A stretch of DNA of 64,000 nucleotides from a virus (taxonomy: Duplodnaviria; Caudoviricetes), in the IMG/VR virus record IMGVR_UViG_3300037423_000582, positions 3,716 to 67,715 of that record; one strand, given 5' to 3'. The notes below the pieces were generated by a model. That model was not told the DNA's origin. It did no database searches and saw only the letters and a program-made list of their open reading frames with translations. The number at the start of each line of letters is the position of its first letter. Positions within the stretch are counted from its first letter, which is position 1. The position numbers were made by a program, and so were the translations under genes. Of the stretch, positions 1,761 to 64,000 are shown one piece after another.

Positions 1761-3878
1761 ATGGGATGGTCCACCGCAACGAAGACTGCAGTACCCAAGC
1801 CCCGAGCAGCGCGTGATATCCGTGAAGTAGTCCGCGACACTGTTGCTCCAATCCGCAACAACACCCGCCTGCACAAGCCCGACTGGGACCGGCTGGTGAC
1901 GCTCGACTTCGAGACGTTCTACGACGCCGACTATACGCTGCGCAAGCTGTCGACGTCCGAGTACATTCGCGATGAACGCTTCCACGCGCAGATGGTGGGC
2001 CTCAAGATCGGCAAGAAGGCAGTCAAGGATGTTCCGGCCAATCGCATTGGCGAAGCACTGGGCGAGATCGACTGGTCGACGCATTCGCTGCTCGCGCACC
2101 ATACGAATTTCGATGGCTTCATCCTGTCGCAGAAGTATGGCGTCAAGCCATTGTTCTACTACGACACGCTGTCGATGGCGCGCGGCCTGCACAGCAACGA
2201 CATCTCGGCCAAGCTGGATGACGTTGCCCAGTACTACGGCGTCGGCAACAAGATCGCTGGCGTGCTGGATTCGGCCAAGGGCATTCGCGATCTGCCGCCG
2301 ACCCTGTACAAAGCAATGGCTGCGTACTGCAAGGAAGACGTGCGCCTCACGTTCGAGATCTTCAAGATGATGCTGGAGCGGTATCCGCATGACGAGATCG
2401 AGCACATCAACCTGACCTGTCGCCTGTTCTGCGATCCGATCCTGAAGGTCGATTTGCCGCTGGTCGAGAAGGAACTGGCGCGCGAGATCGCCTACAAGGA
2501 AGCGCTGCTGCTGTCCTCGCTCGGCACCGAGAAGCAGATCGAGAAGATGATCAAGACGGGCGTGCCGGCCGAGAAGGAGGAGTTGAAGAAGCTCAAGGAC
2601 AAGGGCATCCTGGAGCCGACGCCGCGCGATATCCTACTCACACGCGCGAAGATCGCCATCTCGCGCGACAAGGTGTTCGCCGACATGCTCGAAGCGAACG
2701 GTGTCGAGCCGCCGATGAAGATCTCGCCGGCCTATTTCAAGAGCCGCGACCCGGAAAAGAAATGGGCGTATGCGTTCGCCAAGACCGATCTCGCATTCAC
2801 GTCCCTGCAGGAGCACCCGTCGCAGAAGATACGCGACCTCGTCGAAATGCGCCTGTCGGTCAAGTCTACGACGAATGAGACGCGCGCCGGTCGTTTCCTG
2901 AAGGCCGGTGCGGGTGGTGCCGCGCTGCCGGTGTACCTGAACTATTACGGTGCGCATACCGGCCGCTGGTCGGGCGGCAACAAGATGAACATGCAGAACC
3001 TCAAGCGCGAGGACCCGGACGATCCCGAGAACACCGGCATCCTGCGCAAGTCGATCCTGGCGCCGAAGGGCCACAAAGTCGTGGTCGTCGACTCCGGACA
3101 GATCGAGGCGCGCGTGAATGCATGGCTGGCCGGACAGGAAGACCTGCTGGATGCATTCCGACTGGCCGACGCTGGCCGCGACCGCGACGCCTACTGTAAG
3201 TTCGCTGACAAGATCTACGGCCGGCGCATCGAGAAGAAGGACAAGCTGGAGCGCTTCGTCGGCAAGATCGCCGTGCTGGGCCTGGGCTACCAGATGGGCG
3301 CCAACAAGTTTCAGAACACGCTGGCGCTAGGTACGATGGGTCCGCCGGTGTTCTTCGAGGAAGCGCTGTGCAAGTCCATCGTGAACACGTACCGGCGCGA
3401 GAACTACAAGATCGCGCAGTTCTGGGACTTCTGCAGCAAGACCATCCTGCCGCAGATGGCGCGCGGCATCGAGGGCGAGTACAAGTGTCTGCGTTGGGAG
3501 AAGGACCGTATCTGGCTGCCGAACGGCATGGCGCTGAAGTATCCGAACCTGCGCTGCGAGCGCAACGAGGATACGGGCTGGGACGAGTGGAGCTATGACC
3601 GCAAGGGCGAGCGCGCCAAGATCTACGGCGGCCTGCTGACCGAGAACATCGTCCAGGCGCTGGCGCGGATTATCGTCGCCGACCAGATGCTCGTGATCGA
3701 CAAGATGGGCCACCGGGTCGTCACGACCACGCACGACGAGGTCGTGACCGTCGTGAAGAATGCGCGCGCCGAGAAGTGCTACAAGGACATGCTGCGCGTG
3801 ATGCGCACGCCGCCTGCGTGGTGCGCCGATATCCCGTTGAACTGCGAGGGTGGCTATGCCGATAATTACTCTAAATGA
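1761..3878 (+). CDS. family A DNA polymerase with N-terminal 3'-5' exonuclease
   Basis: ExoI TLDFETFY; motif A VVVDSGQIEARV; motif B RFVGKIAVLGLGYQMG; motif C TTHDEVV. Start chosen from AAAGGAG at 1745-1751. Confidence 0.93.
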   Translation: MGWSTATKTAVPKPRAARDIREVVRDTVAPIRNNTRLHKPDWDRLVTLDFETFYDADYTLRKLSTSEYIRDERFHAQMVGLKIGKKAVKDVPANRIGEALGEIDWSTHSLLAHHTNFDGFILSQKYGVKPLFYYDTLSMARGLHSNDISAKLDDVAQYYGVGNKIAGVLDSAKGIRDLPPTLYKAMAAYCKEDVRLTFEIFKMMLERYPHDEIEHINLTCRLFCDPILKVDLPLVEKELAREIAYKEALLLSSLGTEKQIEKMIKTGVPAEKEELKKLKDKGILEPTPRDILLTRAKIAISRDKVFADMLEANGVEPPMKISPAYFKSRDPEKKWAYAFAKTDLAFTSLQEHPSQKIRDLVEMRLSVKSTTNETRAGRFLKAGAGGAALPVYLNYYGAHTGRWSGGNKMNMQNLKREDPDDPENTGILRKSILAPKGHKVVVVDSGQIEARVNAWLAGQEDLLDAFRLADAGRDRDAYCKFADKIYGRRIEKKDKLERFVGKIAVLGLGYQMGANKFQNTLALGTMGPPVFFEEALCKSIVNTYRRENYKIAQFWDFCSKTILPQMARGIEGEYKCLRWEKDRIWLPNGMALKYPNLRCERNEDTGWDEWSYDRKGERAKIYGGLLTENIVQALARIIVADQMLVIDKMGHRVVTTTHDEVVTVVKNARAEKCYKDMLRVMRTPPAWCADIPLNCEGGYADNYSK

Positions 3879-4140
3879 CCTACTGAATGGCGGCGCACGC
3901 GGCCTGGGCATGCAGATCAAGGTCGCGCCCGAGAATCTGGCACGGCTGGCGGAACTGAAGCCCGGCGAGGCGTTCGACCTAACCTACGAGATTACCTGTC
4001 AGGATGCTGGTGCCGGTGCGTCGGCGCAGCTCCAGGTTCGCTTGAATGATCCTTCGGACTTGTTCGCGGGTCATTCGATCGTCGCCGTGCTGGGCAACCT
4101 GCTGGCGCAGATCGTCGAGGCGAGGCTCGGCAATGGATGA
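3856..4140 (+). CDS. hypothetical protein with C-terminal LLAQIVEARL motif
   Basis: ORF in operon context; start uncertain (3850/3856/3910). Confidence 0.55.
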   Translation: MPIITLNDLLNGGARGLGMQIKVAPENLARLAELKPGEAFDLTYEITCQDAGAGASAQLQVRLNDPSDLFAGHSIVAVLGNLLAQIVEARLGNG

Positions 4141-8423: not shown

Positions 8424-8744
8424 ATGACACTGACCAAAGAGCAGATCGAAGCGATTCACCGGAACAAACGCATCCAGCCCTACATCGCCCGCATGGGCCA
8501 GTCGGTCGGGTTCCTGTGGAACCAGCTGGGCATTGAAGCGCGCACCGCCGTGATGGACATGGTCGACGGCTCGCCGGGCCTGGATGAGAAAATCGTCGAG
8601 TGGGCGATCGAGTTCGACGAGGTGTGGGAAGCGCGCGGGAAGATCCTCAACAACGATCAAGTCGGCGACTTCATGGACCAGATCACGAACTTCACCGACG
8701 CCAAGATCAAGGCTCTCGTCGCCGAGGCGCGGCTTACACAATAA
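8424..8744 (+). CDS. hypothetical protein, paralog of the N-terminus of 8754-9470
   Basis: QLG...R.A.MD.VDGS.GL...WA.EF.E.W.AR shared with the next gene. Confidence 0.7.
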   Translation: MTLTKEQIEAIHRNKRIQPYIARMGQSVGFLWNQLGIEARTAVMDMVDGSPGLDEKIVEWAIEFDEVWEARGKILNNDQVGDFMDQITNFTDAKIKALVAEARLTQ

Positions 8745-57464: not shown

Positions 57465-58046
57465 ATGAGCAATTCGCAAAATCCCGCAGCTATCCTCGCC
57501 GCCCTGTTATCGGGTCTGTCCAATGGGAACGTCCGGGTCGTCGACCTGGAACTGGACCCGAGCCGCAGTTTCGACGAGCAGTTCGGCGAAATCGAGGCGC
57601 GCATTGCAGCCGCCGAGAAGGAAGCCGCCGAGCATCGTGAAGTCTGCAGCACATGCCGCGAGCTGTACGAGGCGACGCAGAAAAGGGCAGCAGCAGCCCA
57701 GGCGGATGAGGATAGAGTCGATGAGCGCGCCGCCGGTTTCAACCCGGCGCCGAATGCAGCCTACGGCATCGGCGATTTCAATGCGGAGTTGATGAAGAAA
57801 GCCGTGGAAGGTGCATCGCTGAAGGGTGCCGATACCAAGCCAGTGTTCCACGAGATCGGCTTCATGGCTTTCCTGCGCGGCAAGCCGATCCTCCAGTCGT
57901 TCCGTACCGATCGCGCCGACGTCGAGAAGGCATACCACGCCTTCGTGAACGATCCGACGGTCGTCCTGATCAACGGCATGATGGGTATCGATGTGCGCGT
58001 GGAAGCCAAGTACATCGAAATCCGCCCGGTCTACGACAAGCGCTAA
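57465..58046 (+). CDS. hypothetical protein ending VEAKYIEIRP
   Basis: GAAAG SD-like sequence; CxxC inside a coiled region. Confidence 0.6.
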   Translation: MSNSQNPAAILAALLSGLSNGNVRVVDLELDPSRSFDEQFGEIEARIAAAEKEAAEHREVCSTCRELYEATQKRAAAAQADEDRVDERAAGFNPAPNAAYGIGDFNAELMKKAVEGASLKGADTKPVFHEIGFMAFLRGKPILQSFRTDRADVEKAYHAFVNDPTVVLINGMMGIDVRVEAKYIEIRPVYDKR

Positions 58047-58093
58047 TCCACCATCTGCGGCCGCGTGCCTTCGGCACCGGCCAGGAGCATCCC

Positions 58094-58405
58094 ATGTCAC
58101 CTGTCATCCAGCGCGCCTCGAAAGCCGAGGCCGACGATTTCCCGCGCACCGACTGGTTCGGGCCCGAGACCAAGCCCACGGTGCCGGGCGAATACGAGGC
58201 CCGCACCGGCGGTGGGCATGTCTTCCGCCGCAAATGGACCGAAAAAGGCTGGATCAACTCGATCACCGGCCTCGTGTCGAACGCACCGCTCGACTGGCGC
58301 GGCGTGCAGCCATACAGCGTGACAATCGCGCTGTATCCGATGACGCTGCGCGGCCTGCTGCACGTACCGAACGATACCGCATCGCTTTCACGACCTACTC
58401 AATAA
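58094..58405 (+). CDS. hypothetical protein
   Basis: AGGAG SD; WF.PE.KP..PG.Y...W...GW...WRG pattern common in small phage proteins. Confidence 0.65.
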   Translation: MSPVIQRASKAEADDFPRTDWFGPETKPTVPGEYEARTGGGHVFRRKWTEKGWINSITGLVSNAPLDWRGVQPYSVTIALYPMTLRGLLHVPNDTASLSRPTQ

Positions 58406-58415
58406 GGAGAACACC

Positions 58416-59591
58416 ATGGCCCAAGACACCACACCCGCAGCATCCGGCATCACCGCCGCCCATCTCACCCCGGTCCAGGTACGCAGCGCGCTGGAGACCT
58501 TGATCGAACTCAAGCGTCCCGGCTTCGTCTGGGGCCCGCCTGGGATTGGCAAGTCGGACCTGATCGCCGACATCGCCAAGAAGCGCGGCATGGAGCTGCG
58601 CGACGTGCGCCTGAACCTGATGGACCCGACCGACATCAAGGGCTTCCCGGTGCCGAACGTCGAACACGGCCACATGGAGTGGCTACCGGCCGACTTCCTG
58701 CCGCACATGGAGATCGAGCGCGAAGTCCTGGTCGACAAGGATGGCCAAGTCGTCGTCGAGAACGAGGATGGCAAGCTGGTGTATGAAGACGGTGCGCCGT
58801 ATAAGCTTAAGGGTGCGCCGAAGTCCGAGATTCGCAAGGTGCCGAACGACTCGCAGGGCATCTTGTTCCTCGACGAGCTGAACCAGGCGCCGCCGATGGT
58901 GCAGGCCGCTGCCTACCAGCTGCTGCTGACCCGCAAGGTCGGCGGCTACACGCTGCCGGATGGCTGGGCCATGTTGGGCGCTGGCAACCGCGAGACTGAC
59001 CGTTCGAACGCGCAGCGCATGCCGGCCGCGCTGGCTCTGCGCCTCGTGCACATCGACATGATGCCGAGCGTCGATGATTGGTGTGCTTGGGCGCTGGAGA
59101 ATGCTGAGCAGGTGCCGGTCGAACTGCTGTCGTTCATCCGCTTCAAGTCGGACCTGCTGCACAAGTTCGACCCGAGCCGCCGTGTGTCGCCAAACCCGCG
59201 CTCGTGGGTGTTCTGCGGTCAGCTGACGAACGCCGGTCTCGATCCGGAAATTCGTCTCGCCATGATGCAGGGCACCGTCGGCGCGGCCGAGGCGTCCGAG
59301 TACGTGGCCTACCTGGGTATGTGGCAGGACTTGCCGAGCGTCGAGCAGGTGAAGCTCGATCCGGACGGCACGCCGGTCCCGGCCAATATTTCGGCCAAGT
59401 TCGGCATCATCGGCTCGCTGGCCCGTGCCAACACGAAGGATATCTATCCGCGCCTGAAGAAGTACATCGACCGTATGGATGCCGAGTGGCAGATCCTGTT
59501 CCACAAGGACGCGTTGGCGTACAACCGCGACTTCACTGGTACGCGCGAGTGGCAGCAGTTCGCCGTGAAGCACTCGCACTTGCTGGCATAA
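58416..59591 (+). CDS. MoxR-like AAA+ ATPase
   Basis: WGPPGIGKS, DVRLN, GILFLDELNQA, AGNR, ALALRL, NPRSW. Confidence 0.9.
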   Translation: MAQDTTPAASGITAAHLTPVQVRSALETLIELKRPGFVWGPPGIGKSDLIADIAKKRGMELRDVRLNLMDPTDIKGFPVPNVEHGHMEWLPADFLPHMEIEREVLVDKDGQVVVENEDGKLVYEDGAPYKLKGAPKSEIRKVPNDSQGILFLDELNQAPPMVQAAAYQLLLTRKVGGYTLPDGWAMLGAGNRETDRSNAQRMPAALALRLVHIDMMPSVDDWCAWALENAEQVPVELLSFIRFKSDLLHKFDPSRRVSPNPRSWVFCGQLTNAGLDPEIRLAMMQGTVGAAEASEYVAYLGMWQDLPSVEQVKLDPDGTPVPANISAKFGIIGSLARANTKDIYPRLKKYIDRMDAEWQILFHKDALAYNRDFTGTREWQQFAVKHSHLLA

Positions 59592-59594
59592 GCC

Positions 59595-60113
59595 ATGGAA
59601 GCGCCGAACGCCGACGCGACCTGGACCACGGCCGACGGCCGGGCACTGGTGATCAAGTGGATGGACAGTCAGCACATCGCCAATTCGATCAATATGGTCA
59701 TCCGCAAGAACAATCTGAAGAAAGTCGATGCGTCGATCATGCTGGAGCTGAGTGGCGTCGATCCGCACAAGGCGGGTCACCGAGCCTTTGCATTCATGGG
59801 CCAGGAGCTGCGCGACCGCGGGCTGTTCAGGTGGGGTTCGGAGCTGCCAACGATGGCGCCGCAGCTCGAACGCCCGGACATGCGCGAGTCGTTCGAGCAG
59901 TTGTGCCTGATCCGGGCACTGATCGATACCGGTAAGTCTTGGCCGGGCACCACGTCGTTTTATGATGCGATGAGCTGCATCCGCTATCAGTTCGAATCGG
60001 CGATCGTCAATCTCGAGAACTGCGTTCGCCGGCAGGGATTTGGATACGCGATCGCGAACGAAATTCTGGCGAAGTACATCGAGTACCGGCTGGCACCACG
60101 GGTGAACCCATGA
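59595..60113 (+). CDS. hypothetical protein, RL-motif C-terminus
   Basis: Ends ILAKYIEYRLAPRVNP. Confidence 0.65.
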   Translation: MEAPNADATWTTADGRALVIKWMDSQHIANSINMVIRKNNLKKVDASIMLELSGVDPHKAGHRAFAFMGQELRDRGLFRWGSELPTMAPQLERPDMRESFEQLCLIRALIDTGKSWPGTTSFYDAMSCIRYQFESAIVNLENCVRRQGFGYAIANEILAKYIEYRLAPRVNP

Positions 60114-60361
60114 CGCGCGAGTTGCCGTCCTGTCCGGTCGTCGAGAACGAAGTACAGGCCATCGCGCTCGGCAAGGCGCTGGCCAAGGTGCTGCACTTCG
60201 ACGAGCTGTGGGTGCTGAAGGTCTTTCGCGGCACCGTCAATACCTACCAGACCGGGCCCGAAGTTCTGAACAACGAGCTGCAGTCGATGTGGGCCGACGG
60301 GCTAACCGGGGATGAGCGCGAGCGCATCCTGGCCGAGTATGTCCTCGCGAGGCTGACATGA
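60110..60361 (+). CDS. hypothetical protein, RL-motif C-terminus
   Basis: Ends ILAEYVLARLT. Confidence 0.65.
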   Translation: MTRELPSCPVVENEVQAIALGKALAKVLHFDELWVLKVFRGTVNTYQTGPEVLNNELQSMWADGLTGDERERILAEYVLARLT

Positions 60362-60570
60362 GCACACCACCGGAGCTGACCAGCAGGGAAGCGAAGCAGG
60401 ATCTTCTCACGGCCGTAATGGATATGACCGGCGTCGTACTTCTGGAACTTAACAGCCTGAATATCAATGCGGCGAACCACTGGCTGGTTCATAAATGGGA
60501 CATCTACTTCACGCCCGAGCAGCAGGAAGCAATCCTCGTCGAATTTACGATGCGGAGGTTGACGAAATGA
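60358..60570 (+). CDS. hypothetical protein, RL-motif C-terminus
   Basis: Ends ILVEFTMRRLTK. Confidence 0.65.
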   Translation: MSTPPELTSREAKQDLLTAVMDMTGVVLLELNSLNINAANHWLVHKWDIYFTPEQQEAILVEFTMRRLTK

Positions 60571-60606
60571 GGGCGCCGTACCGTCTAACAAAATAAAGGA
60601 GTTGTG

Positions 60607-61467
60607 ATGAGCGCACTACAAGAAAAAGCAATGCTGGTCGGCCTGTCGATCAGCGCCTGGACCGCCAGCAAGAAGGACAACAAGGCCAGCGAATCCGCCA
60701 AGGCACAGGCTGGGGCGAAATCGTCGGCCGGCTGGTTCAACAAGCGGCTGGTCGATCCGGCCGCATTGCAGCCGATCAGTAAGCTGGAGGGCCGCATCCG
60801 CGACTTCCACTATCGCTATACGCTGCCGTGGTCCGACAATGGCGACCGTGTGTTGCCCGGTGCCGCGTACATGGACTACATGGACGGCCTGCGCAAGCTG
60901 AAAACCGAGTTCGAGAACGAGGTGGCGAAGTTCGTCGCCGATTACCCCCAGCTCGTACAGAACGCGCGCGAGATCCTGGGCGCCATGTACGACCCGAGGG
61001 ATTACCCGACGGCCGAATCGATCGCTGCGCGCTTCTCGGTCAACACGACATTCTCGACCGTGCCGGACGCCGCGGACTTCCGCGTCGACGTGGGCGACGA
61101 GGCGGTCGCGGCGATCAAGCAGAATATCGAGCAGAATGTCCAGCAGCGCCTGCACGGCGCCACACGCGAGTGCTGGGATCGGCTGCACGAGGTTGTGGGC
61201 GCGATGGTGATTCGCCTCGCCGATGATCAGGCCGTGTTCCGCGATAGTCTCGTCGAGAACATCGAGACACTGGTGCGCATCCTGCCCAAGTTGAACATCA
61301 CGAACGACCCGAAGCTCAACGCGGTGATGGCCAAGATCCGCGATTGGCTGATCGTTTCGCCCAACAGCCTGCGTGCGTCGCTCGATTTGCGCCGCAAGAC
61401 GGCCGACAAGGCTGCGGAAATCCTGGCGGAGATCGGCCCATGGATTACGCCGACGACGACGCCGTAA
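60607..61467 (+). CDS. DUF3150-like protein
   Basis: SAWTASKKD...KRLVDP...TLPW.D.G.RVLP...FV.DYP...RF.V pattern; typical neighbour of MoxR/DUF2201 genes. Confidence 0.7.
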   Translation: MSALQEKAMLVGLSISAWTASKKDNKASESAKAQAGAKSSAGWFNKRLVDPAALQPISKLEGRIRDFHYRYTLPWSDNGDRVLPGAAYMDYMDGLRKLKTEFENEVAKFVADYPQLVQNAREILGAMYDPRDYPTAESIAARFSVNTTFSTVPDAADFRVDVGDEAVAAIKQNIEQNVQQRLHGATRECWDRLHEVVGAMVIRLADDQAVFRDSLVENIETLVRILPKLNITNDPKLNAVMAKIRDWLIVSPNSLRASLDLRRKTADKAAEILAEIGPWITPTTTP

Positions 61468-61748
61468 GGCGTTATGAGATGTGGGAGATGGCGCTGATCG
61501 CACTGCACGGTGATGCCGATTCGACGATAGAAGCAACCGGTACTCTGGGCTGGGTGCATCTCGGAACGCTGCTTGGCGATTCGTCGATCACGCGCATGAA
61601 GCGCGAGGCGCTGATCAACGCGGCACGGATCGAAGGCGACGCACATCTTCCACGCATCCAGAAGGCGTTTCCGGGTATCGACATCGTGCCGCTGGTTCAG
61701 GCGTTGCGCGTGAAGTTCGTCGAGATACGGCTGAGAGTCACGCGATGA
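61440..61748 (+). CDS. hypothetical protein, RL-motif C-terminus
   Basis: GGAG SD; ends LRVKFVEIRLRVTR. Confidence 0.6.
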   Translation: MDYADDDAVRRYEMWEMALIALHGDADSTIEATGTLGWVHLGTLLGDSSITRMKREALINAARIEGDAHLPRIQKAFPGIDIVPLVQALRVKFVEIRLRVTR

Positions 61749-61960
61749 TTCCGGACAGCGAGGAGGTGCACGAGATCGCGCTGGCCATGTCGAATGCCGC
61801 GCTACACATGCGCGACTCTGACGTGGTGCAGTTCTACTCTCTGCATGGTATCGACGGCCTGTGGCACCTTGCAATCGACATCGTGGAGCAAGGTCCGCAG
61901 AATAATATGGAGCGTCGTATCATCGCCGAGGCCATGGTCCGGCGCCTGGAAAGGAAATAA
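61745..61960 (+). CDS. hypothetical protein, RL-motif C-terminus
   Basis: Ends IIAEAMVRRLERK. Confidence 0.6.
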   Translation: MIPDSEEVHEIALAMSNAALHMRDSDVVQFYSLHGIDGLWHLAIDIVEQGPQNNMERRIIAEAMVRRLERK

Positions 61961-62205
61961 TGGACAAGGAGATGAAGATCGTCGTGAAGGCCGCGATCAA
62001 GCGCGGGTGGAAGCTGGTCACGGGTGGCAGGCATTACGTGCTGAAGCACCCGACCGGCATCAAGGTCCAGGTATCGATGTCGCCGTCGGACAAGAACGCC
62101 CATCGGCAGCTGGAGCGCCGGCTGCGCTACAGGGAAAAGGAAATCGCAAATGCCCACTGTGAGGGAAATGCTGCTGGCGGTCCGTGCCGATCAAGCTGCG
62201 TATGA
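61960..62205 (+). CDS. HicA-like (dsRBD-fold) protein
   Basis: RGWKLVTGGRHYVLKHPTG..VQVSMSPSD; AAGGA SD. Confidence 0.65.
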   Translation: MDKEMKIVVKAAIKRGWKLVTGGRHYVLKHPTGIKVQVSMSPSDKNAHRQLERRLRYREKEIANAHCEGNAAGGPCRSSCV

Positions 62206-62425
62206 TGCGTGGCGCACGGCGATCGAATACCTGGCATTCGGTGTCGACCAGGATATGCTCCTGCCTGAGTGCATCATCGATGCGATCAGCGACGAGGTGG
62301 ACGGCACACCCGCGCTTCTGTACGGGTCGCGTGCCGCGACGCTCGCAACGCTGTATATGCTCGGCTATGGCAAGTACCGCGACATCGTCACGGCGAAGAT
62401 GGTCGAGATGAGGTTGATGCCATGA
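62150..62425 (+). CDS. hypothetical protein, RL-motif C-terminus
   Basis: AAGGA SD; ends VTAKMVEMRLMP. Confidence 0.6.
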   Translation: MPTVREMLLAVRADQAAYDAWRTAIEYLAFGVDQDMLLPECIIDAISDEVDGTPALLYGSRAATLATLYMLGYGKYRDIVTAKMVEMRLMP

Positions 62426-62790
62426 ACTTAGCGGATAAATGGCGGGCGATCATCGCTGCGAAGAAGCAGGGCGGCGAGATCACCTACAACGGTGACAAGG
62501 TCTATGTCGGTGGCCGCTGCGTGTATTCGCCGGACGCAGTCGAAGACCAGGAGCTGTTCACCGACGACGAGGAGACGCGGCTATGGGCCTATGCCAGCGC
62601 GCTCGACGAACTGGCCGAGGAGAACCCGTGCTACCACTCGAATTACAACCTGTGGCAGCACTGGAACAAGCGGATGCGGCTGTGGTGGATCGGCGTGATC
62701 GAGAAGCAGGCCCAGGATGGCAAACAGACGATCGGCGTGGACGTGGTCTTGCGTGCGGTCGAGATACGACTTTCAAGGAGCAGGGAATGA
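62422..62790 (+). CDS. hypothetical protein, RL-motif C-terminus
   Basis: Ends VVLRAVEIRLSRSRE. Confidence 0.6.
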   Translation: MNLADKWRAIIAAKKQGGEITYNGDKVYVGGRCVYSPDAVEDQELFTDDEETRLWAYASALDELAEENPCYHSNYNLWQHWNKRMRLWWIGVIEKQAQDGKQTIGVDVVLRAVEIRLSRSRE

Positions 62791-62951
62791 GAACCTTCCC
62801 CAATGGAATATACATCGGTCGGTATAAGGGAGTGAACTTCTACACTACCGGTGGCACCATCCAATGTCTGTTCGGATGGATGCCGATGGAGTTCAGTTCG
62901 ATCCATGCGTTTAAATGTGCCGTTACTCGGCGTGAAAAAGAAGAGGACTGA
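62787..62951 (+). CDS. small hypothetical protein
   Basis: AAGGAG SD; ATGA overlap; lower GC. Confidence 0.5.
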   Translation: MRTFPNGIYIGRYKGVNFYTTGGTIQCLFGWMPMEFSSIHAFKCAVTRREKEED

Positions 62952-62952
62952 C

Positions 62953-63186
62953 ATGAACAAGCCAGTAGTTCAAGCGCCGTGCCCGCGGTGCGGTACGCTC
63001 CATACACGCAGCGAGTACAAACCCCACATCGAGAAAGGGCGAACAGTGCTCGGTCCACATGACGTGAAATGTTCGTGCGGTCTGGAGCTGCGTTGGCGCG
63101 TCCCGCTGTTCAAACAAACCGAGTCTGGCTATGTACTCGGTTTGCTGCGATTCGACGAGACGCCCTTTTTCGAGGATACGAAATGA
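62953..63186 (+). CDS. small Zn-ribbon protein
   Basis: CPRCG...CSCG; GAGGA SD. Confidence 0.6.
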   Translation: MNKPVVQAPCPRCGTLHTRSEYKPHIEKGRTVLGPHDVKCSCGLELRWRVPLFKQTESGYVLGLLRFDETPFFEDTK

Positions 63187-64000
63187 ACAAGCAGGCATAC
63201 GACAAGATCACCAAGGCGCGCACGACGCTGCTCATCGACCAGCCATTCTTCGGCACGCTAGCGATGCGCCTGGAACTGGTGCAGGACCCAAGCATCCAGA
63301 CGCTGAATGTCGATGGAAAGACGATGCGCTATAACCCGGACTTCCTCAACGCGCTGCCGAACGACGTCGCTGCGTCGGCCGTGGCGCACGAGGTCATGCA
63401 CTGCGTGCTGGAGCACTGTGGCGCGTCTGGGCGCGGGATCAGCCTGAATCCGGAAAAGTGGAACTGGGCCTGCGACTATGTCGTGAACGACATGCTGGTG
63501 CAGTCCGGCTTCAAGCTGGGCGAAGGCTGGCTGCACGACACGCAGTATCGCGGCAAGACGGCCGAGCAGATCTATTCCATGATCCCGGACCCGCCGCCCG
63601 GCAGTGGTGGCGCGCCGAAGCCGAACCAGCCAGGACCGCTCGACAAGGTCTTGCCCGGCCCGACTGACCCTGCCATGCAGCAGGCCCAGGCCGCCGACTG
63701 GCATGTCGCCGCGCAGCAGGCCGCTGCAGCCGCTAAGGCGGCCGGCCAGCTGCACGAATCGATGGAGCAGTTCATCGAGAAGGCCAGCCGTAACAAGGTC
63801 GACTGGCGCGAGCAGCTGCGCCTGTTCGTGATGAACGCCGCGAAGAACGACTATTCGTGGCAGCGCCTGAATCGCAAGATGCAGGCGGCCGGCTATTTCC
63901 TGCCGGGCCTGTACAGCGAGGAGATGGGGCCGATCTTCATCGCGTCCGACGAGTCCGGTTCCGTGAGCCAGAAGGTCGTCGAGGCGTTCGCCGCCGAGAT
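63183..64000 (+). CDS. DUF2201 metallopeptidase-like + vWA protein (3' truncated)
   Basis: PFFG.LAMRL, VDG, HEVMH (HExxH), WNWACDYVVN, VDWREQL, MIDAS-like SDESGS. Confidence 0.88.
   Translation, partial: MNKQAYDKITKARTTLLIDQPFFGTLAMRLELVQDPSIQTLNVDGKTMRYNPDFLNALPNDVAASAVAHEVMHCVLEHCGASGRGISLNPEKWNWACDYVVNDMLVQSGFKLGEGWLHDTQYRGKTAEQIYSMIPDPPPGSGGAPKPNQPGPLDKVLPGPTDPAMQQAQAADWHVAAQQAAAAAKAAGQLHESMEQFIEKASRNKVDWREQLRLFVMNAAKNDYSWQRLNRKMQAAGYFLPGLYSEEMGPIFIASDESGSVSQKVVEAFAAE

What the first reader, a model, noticed from the sequence alone, without database searches (positions are those of the whole stretch)
57999..62772. Seven unrelated small proteins in the MoxR/vWA cluster share one C-terminal decapeptide: a candidate tagging system
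Seen: aligned on a near-terminal RL are ILAKYIEYRL (60063), ILAEYVLARL (60326), ILVEFTMRRL (60532), LRVKFVEIRL (61704), IIAEAMVRRL (61919), VTAKMVEMRL (62387) and VVLRAVEIRL (62743), plus the near-match VEAKYIEIRP (57999). In the seven RL copies the motif sits 1-6 residues from the stop, and the rest of each protein shows no similarity I can see. Arg codons vary (CGG, AGG, CGC, CGA), which points to selection on the peptide rather than on a DNA repeat. The genes are interleaved with a MoxR AAA+, DUF3150 and a HExxH-vWA protein. Established: MoxR ATPases use vWA partners as adaptors to engage clients, and AAA+ machines often read terminal tags. Inference: a phage-encoded machine plus a variable array of tagged clients or adaptors (for remodelling, processing, virion loading or membrane docking). 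I know of no description of this.
Basis: partly seen in the sequence, partly recalled or inferred. Interest (0 to 1): 0.82.

Follow-up and report, generated by a model that had tools for sequence, protein, structure and literature searches.

The report
Shared end-helix on phage small proteins
Seven small early proteins of an uncultured 67.7-kb phage really do end in the same Arg-Leu helix, but it is the last helix of folded, fast-duplicating little proteins that live inside a MoxR/DUF3150/vWA gene cassette, not a loose tag, and what they do is still unknown.

Summary
The motif is real. All seven RL decapeptides sit at the stated coordinates, 1-6 residues before a stop. A leave-out scoring matrix places them among the top nine of 486 window ORFs, each well above the best decoy. 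Orthologues in about 20 related phages and prophages keep the motif.

Three corrections:
- b83 and c70 are paralogues, so there are six sequence families, not seven unrelated proteins.
- The near-match at 57999 is not a member.
- Arg codon choice is shaped by the next gene's Shine-Dalgarno site (AGG 37% at the motif against 6% background). More than half of the Arg codons are still CGN, so selection acts on the peptide.

AlphaFold2 models of two families put the motif in the last helix of a confident four-helix domain (pLDDT above 93), so it is not a disordered tail. Families b/c and g expand as tandem arrays of up to 7 and 5 copies. In 16 related loci, 104 of 109 motif-bearing ORFs lie between MoxR and DUF2201. 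About 60 more distant MoxR/DUF3150/DUF2201 cassettes have none.

Best reading: a clade-specific, rapidly diverging array of small helical proteins tied to the cassette. The constant end-helix is a structural or contact element. An AAA+-read tag is not supported. Other agents in this scan noted similar small-paralogue arrays in such cassettes on other DNA.

The parts
58416..59591 (+). MoxR-type AAA+ ATPase (391 aa), first gene of the cassette
   Evidence: PHROG 1297 'ATPase' at E 5.9e-82. Pfam AAA_5 scores 21.9 bits against a cut-off of 22.
59595..60113 (+). a172: 172-aa protein, family 'a'. RL core ILAKYIEYRL at 60063-60092, tail APRVNP.
   Evidence: Twelve orthologues end in ..KF.EYRL. No Pfam or PHROG family.
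60110..60361 (+). b83: 83-aa acidic protein, family 'b/c'. RL core ILAEYVLARL at 60326-60355, tail T. The AGG Arg codon forms the GAGG Shine-Dalgarno site of c70.
   Evidence: AlphaFold2 pLDDT 94.5 with four helices; the motif is helix 67-82. Absent from the closest relative L003.
60358..60570 (+). c70: 70-aa acidic protein, paralogue of b83. RL core ILVEFTMRRL at 60532-60561, tail TK.
   Evidence: Iterated HMM links b83 and c70. Alignment A2.
60604..61467 (+). DUF3150 protein (287 aa)
   Evidence: Pfam PF11348, 38.3 bits against a cut-off of 24.9. 163 homologues.
61440..61748 (+). d102: about 102-aa protein, family 'd'. Its start overlaps the end of DUF3150. RL core LRVKFVEIRL at 61704-61733, tail RVTR.
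   Evidence: Ten relatives end in ..R[VL]R....RL.
61745..61960 (+). e71: 71-aa acidic protein, family 'e'. RL core IIAEAMVRRL at 61919-61948, tail ERK. The tail carries the next gene's Shine-Dalgarno site.
61960..62205 (+). HicA-like 81-aa basic protein inside the array. No RL end, so not part of the motif set.
   Evidence: Pfam HicA_toxin scores 22.6 bits against a cut-off of 27. PHROG 2053 at E 1.4e-6.
62150..62425 (+). f91: 91-aa acidic protein, family 'f'. RL core VTAKMVEMRL at 62387-62416, tail MP.
   Evidence: The conserved N-terminus MP[ST]..E fixes the start codon.
62422..62790 (+). g122: 122-aa acidic protein, family 'g', the most widespread family. RL core VVLRAVEIRL at 62743-62772, tail SRSRE. 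The tail carries the AAGGAG Shine-Dalgarno site.
   Evidence: AlphaFold2 pLDDT 88.7; residues 48-121 form four helices with pLDDT above 95, and the motif is helix 104-121.
62851..63186 (+). z111: Cys-rich ORF (zinc-ribbon-like) between g and DUF2201. No RL end. Absent from L003.
63183..64000 (+). DUF2201_N (HExxH) + DUF2201 (vWA-like) protein. The gene is cut by the window and record end and continues at record bases 6-443.
   Evidence: The full-length L003 orthologue hits PF13203 at E 1.5e-42 and PF09967 at E 1.4e-22. HExxH and DxSGS..T..D are invariant in alignment A4. The gene's continuation is seen in L091.
Rejected as a member.
   Evidence: Its orthologues end in [IV][RK]PV[FY]. hhalign against all RL families gives E 0.3-0.8.

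Best explanation
The RL decapeptide is the C-terminal end of the last helix of small (about 65-125 aa), mostly acidic, all-alpha early proteins. They form a clade-specific, fast-evolving gene array embedded in the MoxR-DUF3150-DUF2201(vWA) cassette of a group of roughly 66-70-kb phages of Burkholderiales-type hosts.

Shown:
- The motif is under protein-level selection and is strictly terminal.
- In two families it is helix 4 of a confidently predicted four-helix domain.
- Families multiply by tandem duplication. They diverge faster than the cassette enzymes and come and go between close relatives.
- The 1-6-residue tail after RL, and often the Arg and Leu codons themselves, are dual-coded with the ribosome-binding site and overlapping start of the next gene.

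Inferred:
- The families descend from one or a few founder genes inside the cassette. They have diverged beyond sequence recognition except for the end-helix.
- That helix is retained because its broad hydrophobic face, with the invariant Arg in the middle followed by Leu/Met, is a constant structural or contact element. Most likely it is the surface through which each paralogue meets a common partner, plausibly a component of the cassette.
- The variable first three helices give each paralogue its own specificity, for host takeover or counter-defence.

It is not a loose degron-like tag.
For: - Motif significance and C-terminal specificity. In + strand ORFs of the clade, 124 matrix hits have tails of 8 residues or fewer, against 9 in minus-strand decoys; the commonest tail is 2 residues. 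The leave-out matrix separates the seven from all decoys.
- Conservation in orthologues.
- Structured helix. b83 has pLDDT 94.5 with helices 14-28, 34-40, 50-63 and 67-82. g has helices 48-67, 69-80, 83-98 and 104-121 with pLDDT above 95.
- Tandem paralogy. The b/c family reaches 30 members, with 7 adjacent copies in L090 and 3-4 in L083-L087. The g family has 5 adjacent copies in L010.
- Fast evolution. Between the window and L003, DUF3150 is 96% identical, DUF2201 92% and MoxR 89%. The RL genes are 66-87% identical, and b83 is missing from L003.
- Confinement to the cassette: 104 of 109. Four of the most divergent b/c representatives looked up: two lie between a Pfam-annotated AAA ATPase and DUF3150, one follows an unannotated 350-aa gene of ATPase size, and one contig is too short to tell.
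- Single RL/RM-ended ORFs sit inside distant cassettes: L015, L017, L019, and L101 with a score of 17.2.
- Dual coding with the Shine-Dalgarno site: AGG 37% against 6% background, TTG enriched, and 83 of 120 gene ends overlap the next start.
- All 15 profile pairs among the six families align end to end at E 5e-4 to 0.13. Pairs with the control family h give E 0.3-0.8.
Against: - Homology between families is not demonstrable. With the last 10 residues removed, no pair aligns. b/c against g gives 2% probability over 15 columns. The profile search of 1.84 billion proteins with b/c drew in no recognisable member of another RL family among the 36 representatives fetched.
- I could not superpose the two models, so 'same fold' rests only on a similar order of helices.
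- No partner has been identified.
- The cassette works without RL proteins in most phages.
- Two weaker RL-like ends lie outside the cassette in this genome, at 3850-4140 and 8424-8744.
Confidence: 0.5

Rival explanations
1. First reader's model. The decapeptide is a portable terminal tag. Unrelated client or adaptor proteins use it to be recognised, and then remodelled, processed or loaded, by the MoxR AAA+/vWA/DUF3150 machine.
For: - Strict confinement of the tagged genes to the cassette.
- No detectable similarity between families outside the helix.
- RL/RM-ended small ORFs in distant cassettes.
- From general knowledge: MoxR ATPases work through vWA adaptors, and some AAA+ enzymes pull on C-terminal tails.
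Against: - The motif is a high-confidence helix packed into a four-helix domain, not a free end.
- Its distance from the terminus varies from 0 to 8 residues.
- The residues after it are dictated by the next gene's ribosome-binding site.
- About 60 cassettes lack any such protein.
- Tandem duplication explains the co-location.
- From general knowledge: vWA MIDAS sites bind carboxylates, not Arg.
Confidence: 0.1
2. Pure ancestry with no shared partner. All RL proteins are diverged copies of one small helical protein. The end-helix is simply the slowest-evolving core helix. The cassette location reflects only where the duplicates landed.
For: - Tandem arrays, similar sizes and a similar order of helices.
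- In a helical-wheel reading of the matrix (my inference), the Arg sits in the middle of the hydrophobic arc, as a buried structural residue would.
- The distribution is clade-specific.
Against: - Six or more families keep the same Arg-Leu while everything else has changed. That is more constraint than a generic core helix usually shows.
- The flanks also hold many small genes, yet duplicates almost never sit there.
- RL-type ORFs recur in cassettes of distant lineages.
Confidence: 0.27
3. The motif is a by-product of gene-junction constraints: Shine-Dalgarno and overlapping-start codons read in the upstream frame.
For: - AGG is enriched sixfold at the Arg, and TTG at the Leu.
- Tails of 1-2 residues place the Arg codon 5-8 nt before the next ATG.
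- 83 of 120 gene ends overlap the next start.
Against: - 54% of the Arg codons are CGN.
- With tails of 3 residues or more the Shine-Dalgarno site lies in the tail, yet Arg is still kept.
- Eight further positions upstream are conserved with helical periodicity.
- Overlapping small genes in about 60 other DUF3150 loci show no such motif.
Confidence: 0.03
4. The conserved end acts as a nascent peptide in the ribosome exit tunnel. It would modulate termination and so couple translation to the overlapping downstream start.
For: - The motif sits a short and fairly narrow distance (mostly 1-3 residues) from the stop.
- Most junctions are ATGA-type overlaps.
Against: - The distance varies from 1 to 6 residues within this one genome.
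- The helix is part of a confident fold.
- No known arrest motif resembles it (general knowledge).
- Gene c70 has the motif, but the next real gene starts 34 nt downstream.
Confidence: 0.03

Closest known systems
MoxR AAA+ / vWA chaperone pairs (RavA-ViaA, CbbQ-CbbO, NorQ-NorD, CobS-CobT); named from general knowledge
   Same: The cassette has a MoxR-type ATPase (PHROG 1297, AAA_5) and a vWA-like protein with an intact DxSGS..T..D motif.
   Different: - A DUF3150 protein and an HExxH domain are part of this cassette.
- None of the known pairs is described with an array of small proteins that share an end-helix.
- No client of this cassette is known.
IncC plasmid hde genes vcrx089-vcrx090 (AAA_5 + CbbQ_C ATPase plus an unknown protein), shown to counter type I restriction on entry into a new host (PMC7498323)
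   Same: A mobile-element MoxR-class ATPase operon expressed early in a new host. It gives a tested precedent for a counter-defence role.
   Different: - Homology of the window's ATPase to Vcrx089 was not shown here. tblastn against plasmids found Burkholderiales and other replicons, but not IncC.
- No small RL proteins are reported there.
Shared short terminal peptides on unrelated phage proteins (T4 capsid-targeting sequence on internal proteins; T4 clamp-binding C-terminal peptides); recalled, not tested
   Same: Several otherwise dissimilar phage proteins carry one short terminal sequence that addresses them to a common partner.
   Different: Those peptides are unstructured extensions at a fixed end. 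Here the motif is the last helix of the fold, and its families behave as tandem paralogues.
RbcX (Rubisco assembly chaperone, four-helix bundle)
   Same: The five best structural matches of the g model's helical domain are RbcX entries: Z 5.6-6.8, rmsd 3.2-3.5 Å, 68-72 residues aligned.
   Different: - The Z scores are below the level expected by chance for helical bundles.
- Sequence identity is 3-11%.
- Foldseek found nothing.
- This is a resemblance only.
Arrays of divergent small paralogues in MoxR/DUF3150/DUF2201 loci noted elsewhere in this scan (e1-5849796, e1-5897218)
   Same: Nine or ten diverged small proteins threaded through the same kind of cassette in prophages. Follow-up agents judged the link to the cassette real and the function unknown.
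   Different: - Those are described as basic proteins. The ones here are acidic, pI 4.4-5.9.
- I could not compare the sequences, so whether they carry the RL helix is unknown.

Membership tests
MoxR-class AAA+ ATPase (Pfam AAA_5 / PHROG 1297) | Match to the family profile over the AAA+ core | tested here: met
   PHROG 1297 at E 5.9e-82 over residues 15-390. Pfam AAA_5 scores 21.9 bits, just under the cut-off of 22.
DUF3150 (PF11348) | Score above Pfam's gathering threshold | tested here: met
   38.3 bits against a cut-off of 24.9.
DUF2201_N metallopeptidase-like + DUF2201 vWA-like | Both Pfam domains present, plus an HExxH motif and a MIDAS-like DxSxS..T..D motif | tested here: met
   L003 orthologue (92% identical to the window's partial gene): PF13203 at E 1.5e-42 and PF09967 at E 1.4e-22. 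H69, E70, H73, D256, S258, S260, T316 and D340 are invariant in 21 sequences.
Terminal recognition tag or degron of an AAA+ machine (ssrA-like) | An unstructured peptide at the very terminus, at a fixed distance from the end | tested here: not met
   The motif is a helix with pLDDT 93-98 inside a four-helix domain. It is followed by 0-8 variable residues.
Terminal recognition tag or degron of an AAA+ machine (ssrA-like) | Physical recognition by the ATPase or its adaptor | not testable with these tools
One paralogous superfamily of 'RL-helix' proteins | Detectable homology over the whole domain between members | tested here: inconclusive
   - Met within b/c (30 members) and within g (22 members).
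- Between families only the last 15-35 columns align, at E 5e-4 to 0.13 and probability of 30% or less.
- Both families that were modelled show four helices in the same order, but the models could not be superposed.
HicA toxin (PF07927), for the 81-aa gene at 61960-62205 | Score above Pfam's gathering threshold | tested here: inconclusive
   22.6 bits against a cut-off of 27. PHROG 2053 at E 1.4e-6 and PHROG 353 'toxin' at E 0.005.
RbcX fold, for the g122 helical domain | Structural match well above the background for helical bundles | tested here: inconclusive
   The best match is Z 6.8. The tool's own guidance puts chance level for helical bundles at up to about 13.

The most novel reading that the evidence does not exclude
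The RL helix is the constant docking element of a diversifying array of small adaptor or client proteins that plug into the MoxR-DUF3150-vWA machine. Each paralogue's variable helices would recognise a different host target. The cassette plus array would then work as a programmable remodelling or counter-defence device, comparable in logic to substrate-receptor families of ubiquitin ligases. This would also give the first handle on what the widespread phage and plasmid MoxR/DUF3150/vWA triad does.
Probability: 0.2. Interest if true: 0.8.

Novelty: new variant of a known kind. Interest (0 to 1): 0.55.

Why it matters
The MoxR/DUF3150/HExxH-vWA triad is common in phages, plasmids and integrative elements, yet it has no established mechanism. 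One related ATPase operon has been shown to counter restriction (PMC7498323).

In this phage clade the triad is threaded with six or more families of small proteins. None has a Pfam or PHROG family. All keep one Arg-Leu end-helix while everything else diverges.

If the helix is a common contact surface, these proteins are the first candidate partners of the triad. The invariant Arg-Leu then gives a clean point-mutation test.

The case is also a clear example of dual coding. The conserved Arg, and often the Leu, double as the next gene's ribosome-binding site, with a measurable codon bias.

Tried and rejected
- Pfam and PHROGs on all small proteins: no family. Only noise-level hits (TERT_thumb, HTH_OrfB_IS605).
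- blastn of the region against the phage and plasmid collections: nothing useful.
- tblastn of DUF3150 against cultured phages: only three cyanophage records at 31% identity. The clade therefore has no cultured representative there.
- First genome-contig scan with a single protein: no relatives.
- Foldseek against the PDB for both models: nothing at E 0.001 or better.
- VIA wide search: b83 best Z 4.8 (CARD-like or HAD-cap bundles); g best Z 6.8 (RbcX). Both are below the noise level for helical bundles.
- ESM Atlas: no usable hit.
- PDB sequence profiles: nothing.
- hhalign between families with the motif removed: nothing. A single phmmer link between a b/c member and a g member (E 4e-4 in a set of 120) was too weak to use.
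- Two long repeat proteins among the b/c profile hits (P0192, P0202) match only a 'T.EQKE.I' helix that is repeated in HTH-like units. I regard them as spurious.
- 57999 as an eighth copy: rejected.
- Shine-Dalgarno by-product as the sole cause: rejected.
- A test for similarity upstream of the decapeptide gave a weak positive (p 0.007 and 3e-5). It is confounded because g orthologues sit in both sets.
- Literature searches for DUF3150 and DUF2201 found no functional study.

Full report
**Context.** The window is bases 3716-67715 of a 67,715-bp virus record flagged as having direct terminal repeats. It encodes a DNA polymerase, ligase, primase, large terminase and tail fibre. The region in question is a + strand run of tightly packed early genes:
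- MoxR-type ATPase, 58416-59591
- a172, b83, c70
- DUF3150, 60604-61467
- d102, e71, a HicA-like gene, f91, g122
- a Cys-rich ORF
- an HExxH + vWA-like DUF2201 protein, 63183 onward

- A loose regex for the decapeptide hits nine places in all six frames of the 64 kb. Eight lie at 57999-62743 on the + strand, each 1-6 residues before a stop. The ninth is a chance hit in a tiny ORF.
- I trained a 14-residue scoring matrix only on relatives, leaving out the window and its nearest relative. It gives the seven proteins 10.4-26.1. The best minus-strand decoy ORF in the window scores 6.5.
- Across the related loci, 124 above-threshold matches in + strand ORFs lie within 8 residues of the C-terminus, against 9 in decoys. 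Matches further inside proteins are as frequent as in decoys (97 against 99). The tail after RL is most often 2 residues.

**Relatives.** The DUF3150 protein has many homologues on contigs of 60-70 kb. I fetched 80 DUF3150 loci from IMG/VR, eight more from metagenome assemblies and twelve from bacterial genomes.
- A clade with DUF3150 at 42% identity or more keeps the synteny MoxR, small genes, DUF3150, small genes, DUF2201, PDDEXK, SNF2. It includes prophage-like loci in Herminiimonas sp. CN and a Janthinobacterium MAG.
- Each locus in this clade carries 2-9 small ORFs that end in the same helix.
- Loci with more distant DUF3150 have the three cassette genes, usually directly adjacent, and motif counts at decoy level.

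**How many families?** Iterated HMM searches in the ORF set of the clade give these families: a (12 members), b/c (30), d (10), e (7), f (8) and g (22). No minus-strand decoy was recruited.
- The near-match at 57999 belongs to a seventh family whose orthologues end in [IV][RK]PV[FY]. I reject it as a member.
- Between families, profile-profile comparison aligns only the C-terminal 15-35 columns, always end to end, at E 5e-4 to 0.13. With the last ten residues removed nothing aligns. The control family h gives E 0.3-0.8.
- Clustering of all 120 motif-bearing ORFs with the motif removed gives 49 groups, many of them singletons. The clade as a whole therefore holds well over ten sequence families.
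- A b/c profile run against 1.84 billion representative proteins finds only 75 clusters. Apart from two long repeat proteins that I regard as spurious (P0192, P0202), they are 56-102 aa and the match runs to the C-terminus. Nearly all of the 36 fetched end in ..RL plus 0-3 residues.

**Protein-level or DNA-level?** Both, in layers.
- The tail after RL encodes the Shine-Dalgarno site and the overlapping start of the next gene. Examples are GAA AGG AAA TAA TG after e71 and TCA AGG AGC AGG GAA TGA after g122.
- 83 of 120 such gene ends overlap the next start codon.
- At the conserved Arg, AGG makes up 37% of codons against 6% in the rest of the same proteins. It is 43% when the tail is 1-2 residues, which puts the codon 5-8 nt before the next ATG. 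It is about 10% when the tail is longer. TTG is enriched at the Leu.
- Even so, 54% of the Arg codons are CGN. Arg is kept when the Shine-Dalgarno site lies elsewhere. Eight further upstream positions are conserved: -8 I/V/L, -6 A/V/T, -5 E/K/R/Q, -4 and -3 hydrophobic.
- The peptide is therefore what is selected, and codon choice is tuned to the neighbour's ribosome-binding site.

**Structure.** AlphaFold2 with the family alignments gives confident models.
- b83: pLDDT 94.5, pTM 0.83, helices 14-28, 34-40, 50-63 and 67-82.
- g122: pLDDT 88.7. A short N-terminal helix/beta unit is followed by helices 48-67, 69-80, 83-98 and 104-121, with pLDDT above 95.
- In both, the motif is the last of four helices and is as confident as the core. 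On a helical wheel (my inference) the hydrophobic positions span about 200 degrees with the Arg at the centre. This looks like a packed or interface helix, not a free tail.
- No solved fold matches convincingly. The g domain's five top hits are RbcX at Z 5.6-6.8, below the noise level for helical bundles.

**Evolutionary behaviour.**
- The b/c family occurs as 2-4 adjacent copies in most relatives and 7 in L090. The g family has 5 adjacent copies in L010.
- Between the window and its nearest relative L003, DUF3150 is 96% identical, DUF2201 92% and MoxR 89%. The RL genes are 66-87% identical. b83 and the Cys-rich ORF are absent from L003.
- The window's RL proteins are acidic, pI 4.4-5.9, except a172.

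**Link to the cassette.**
- In 16 related loci, 104 of 109 motif-bearing ORFs lie between the start of MoxR and the end of DUF2201. That is 1.17 per kb against 0.04 per kb in flanks that are also full of small genes.
- I looked up four of the most divergent b/c representatives independently. Two sit between a Pfam-annotated AAA ATPase gene and DUF3150. One follows an unannotated 350-aa gene of ATPase size. One contig is too short to tell.
- Single RL/RM-ended small ORFs also occur inside cassettes of distant lineages: L015, L017, L019 (a low-GC phage, 38% DUF3150 identity) and L101 (a Desulfobacterales MAG, 35% identity, score 17.2).
- Conversely, most cassettes have none. The dependence, if any, runs from the RL proteins to the cassette and not the other way.
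- In this genome, two weaker RL-like ends (3850-4140 and 8424-8744) lie in the replication block. Another note of this scan, e1-5912004, also saw them.

**Interpretation.** The data fit best a founder small helical protein inside the cassette that multiplied by tandem duplication and diverged rapidly. The terminal helix would be kept as a constant structural or contact element. A shared partner, plausibly a cassette component, is a reasonable but untested inference. The tag idea in its strict form (a free terminal peptide read by the AAA+ ring) is not supported.

The only tested function for a related kind of operon is anti-restriction by the IncC genes vcrx089-090 (PMC7498323). I could not show that the window's ATPase is a homologue.

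**Prior notes in this scan.** Two other agents described nine- and ten-member arrays of divergent small paralogues in MoxR/DUF3150/DUF2201 loci on other DNA (e1-5849796, e1-5897218). I treat these as leads that agree with the paralogue-array reading. I could not compare their sequences with these.

**Verdict.** This is a real, conserved and so far undescribed feature. The tag mechanism is unlikely. A cassette-linked, fast-evolving small-protein array with a constant end-helix is the best current description. Interest is moderate. It would be high if docking to the triad were shown.

Noticed in passing
window 61960-62205: An 81-aa basic HicA-like gene (Pfam 22.6 bits against a cut-off of 27; PHROG 2053 at E 1e-6) sits inside the RL array. 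Its 3' end overlaps the start of f91 by 56 nt. No obvious HicB partner is present. It occurs in L003 but not in most relatives.
   Followed up: partly
window 63183-64000 and L091 (record bases 6-443): The DUF2201 gene runs off the end of the record and continues at its start. The same residues are encoded at both ends. The record's 'direct terminal repeat' therefore lies inside a gene. It looks like a circular or permuted assembly overlap rather than true physical genome ends.
   Followed up: partly
window 3850-4140 and 8424-8744: Two further small ORFs in the replication block end in weaker RL helices: ..LLAQIVEARLGNG and ..IKALVAEARLTQ. Their leave-out matrix scores are 8.9 and 11.5, against a best decoy of 6.5.
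   Followed up: partly
L010 7831-8855; L090 50-1676: Striking tandem arrays. Five adjacent 63-74-aa g-family paralogues lie between DUF3150 and DUF2201 in L010. Seven adjacent 72-85-aa b/c-family paralogues lie upstream of DUF3150 in L090.
   Followed up: yes
L005-L012 and L093 small ORFs: Many RL proteins of this sub-clade share a longer signature, A-x-x-G-[DNL]-[PE]-x-A-x-E-L..., just before the terminal helix. It is reminiscent of the helix A/helix B junction of Sel1-like repeats. No Pfam match supports this.
   Followed up: partly
window 60567-60596: After c70, the ATGA overlap with a perfect GGAGG in front opens only a 9-codon ORF (MRAPYRLTK). The next real gene, DUF3150, starts 34 nt further on at a GTG. 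This may be a remnant of a lost downstream paralogue.
   Followed up: no
window 58416-59591: The MoxR ATPase (391 aa) carries an insertion of about 50 residues, roughly residues 95-150, compared with the 336-350-aa versions in L011, L012 and L019. The length of the insertion varies among relatives.
   Followed up: no
L092 (Herminiimonas sp. CN, NZ_AVCC01000001.1) and L093 (Janthinobacterium MAG): Relatives of this phage clade lie on contigs of Oxalobacteraceae genomes, with 4 and about 6 RL-ended genes in the cassette. This suggests Burkholderiales hosts and offers a cultured strain in which to test the genes.
   Followed up: partly
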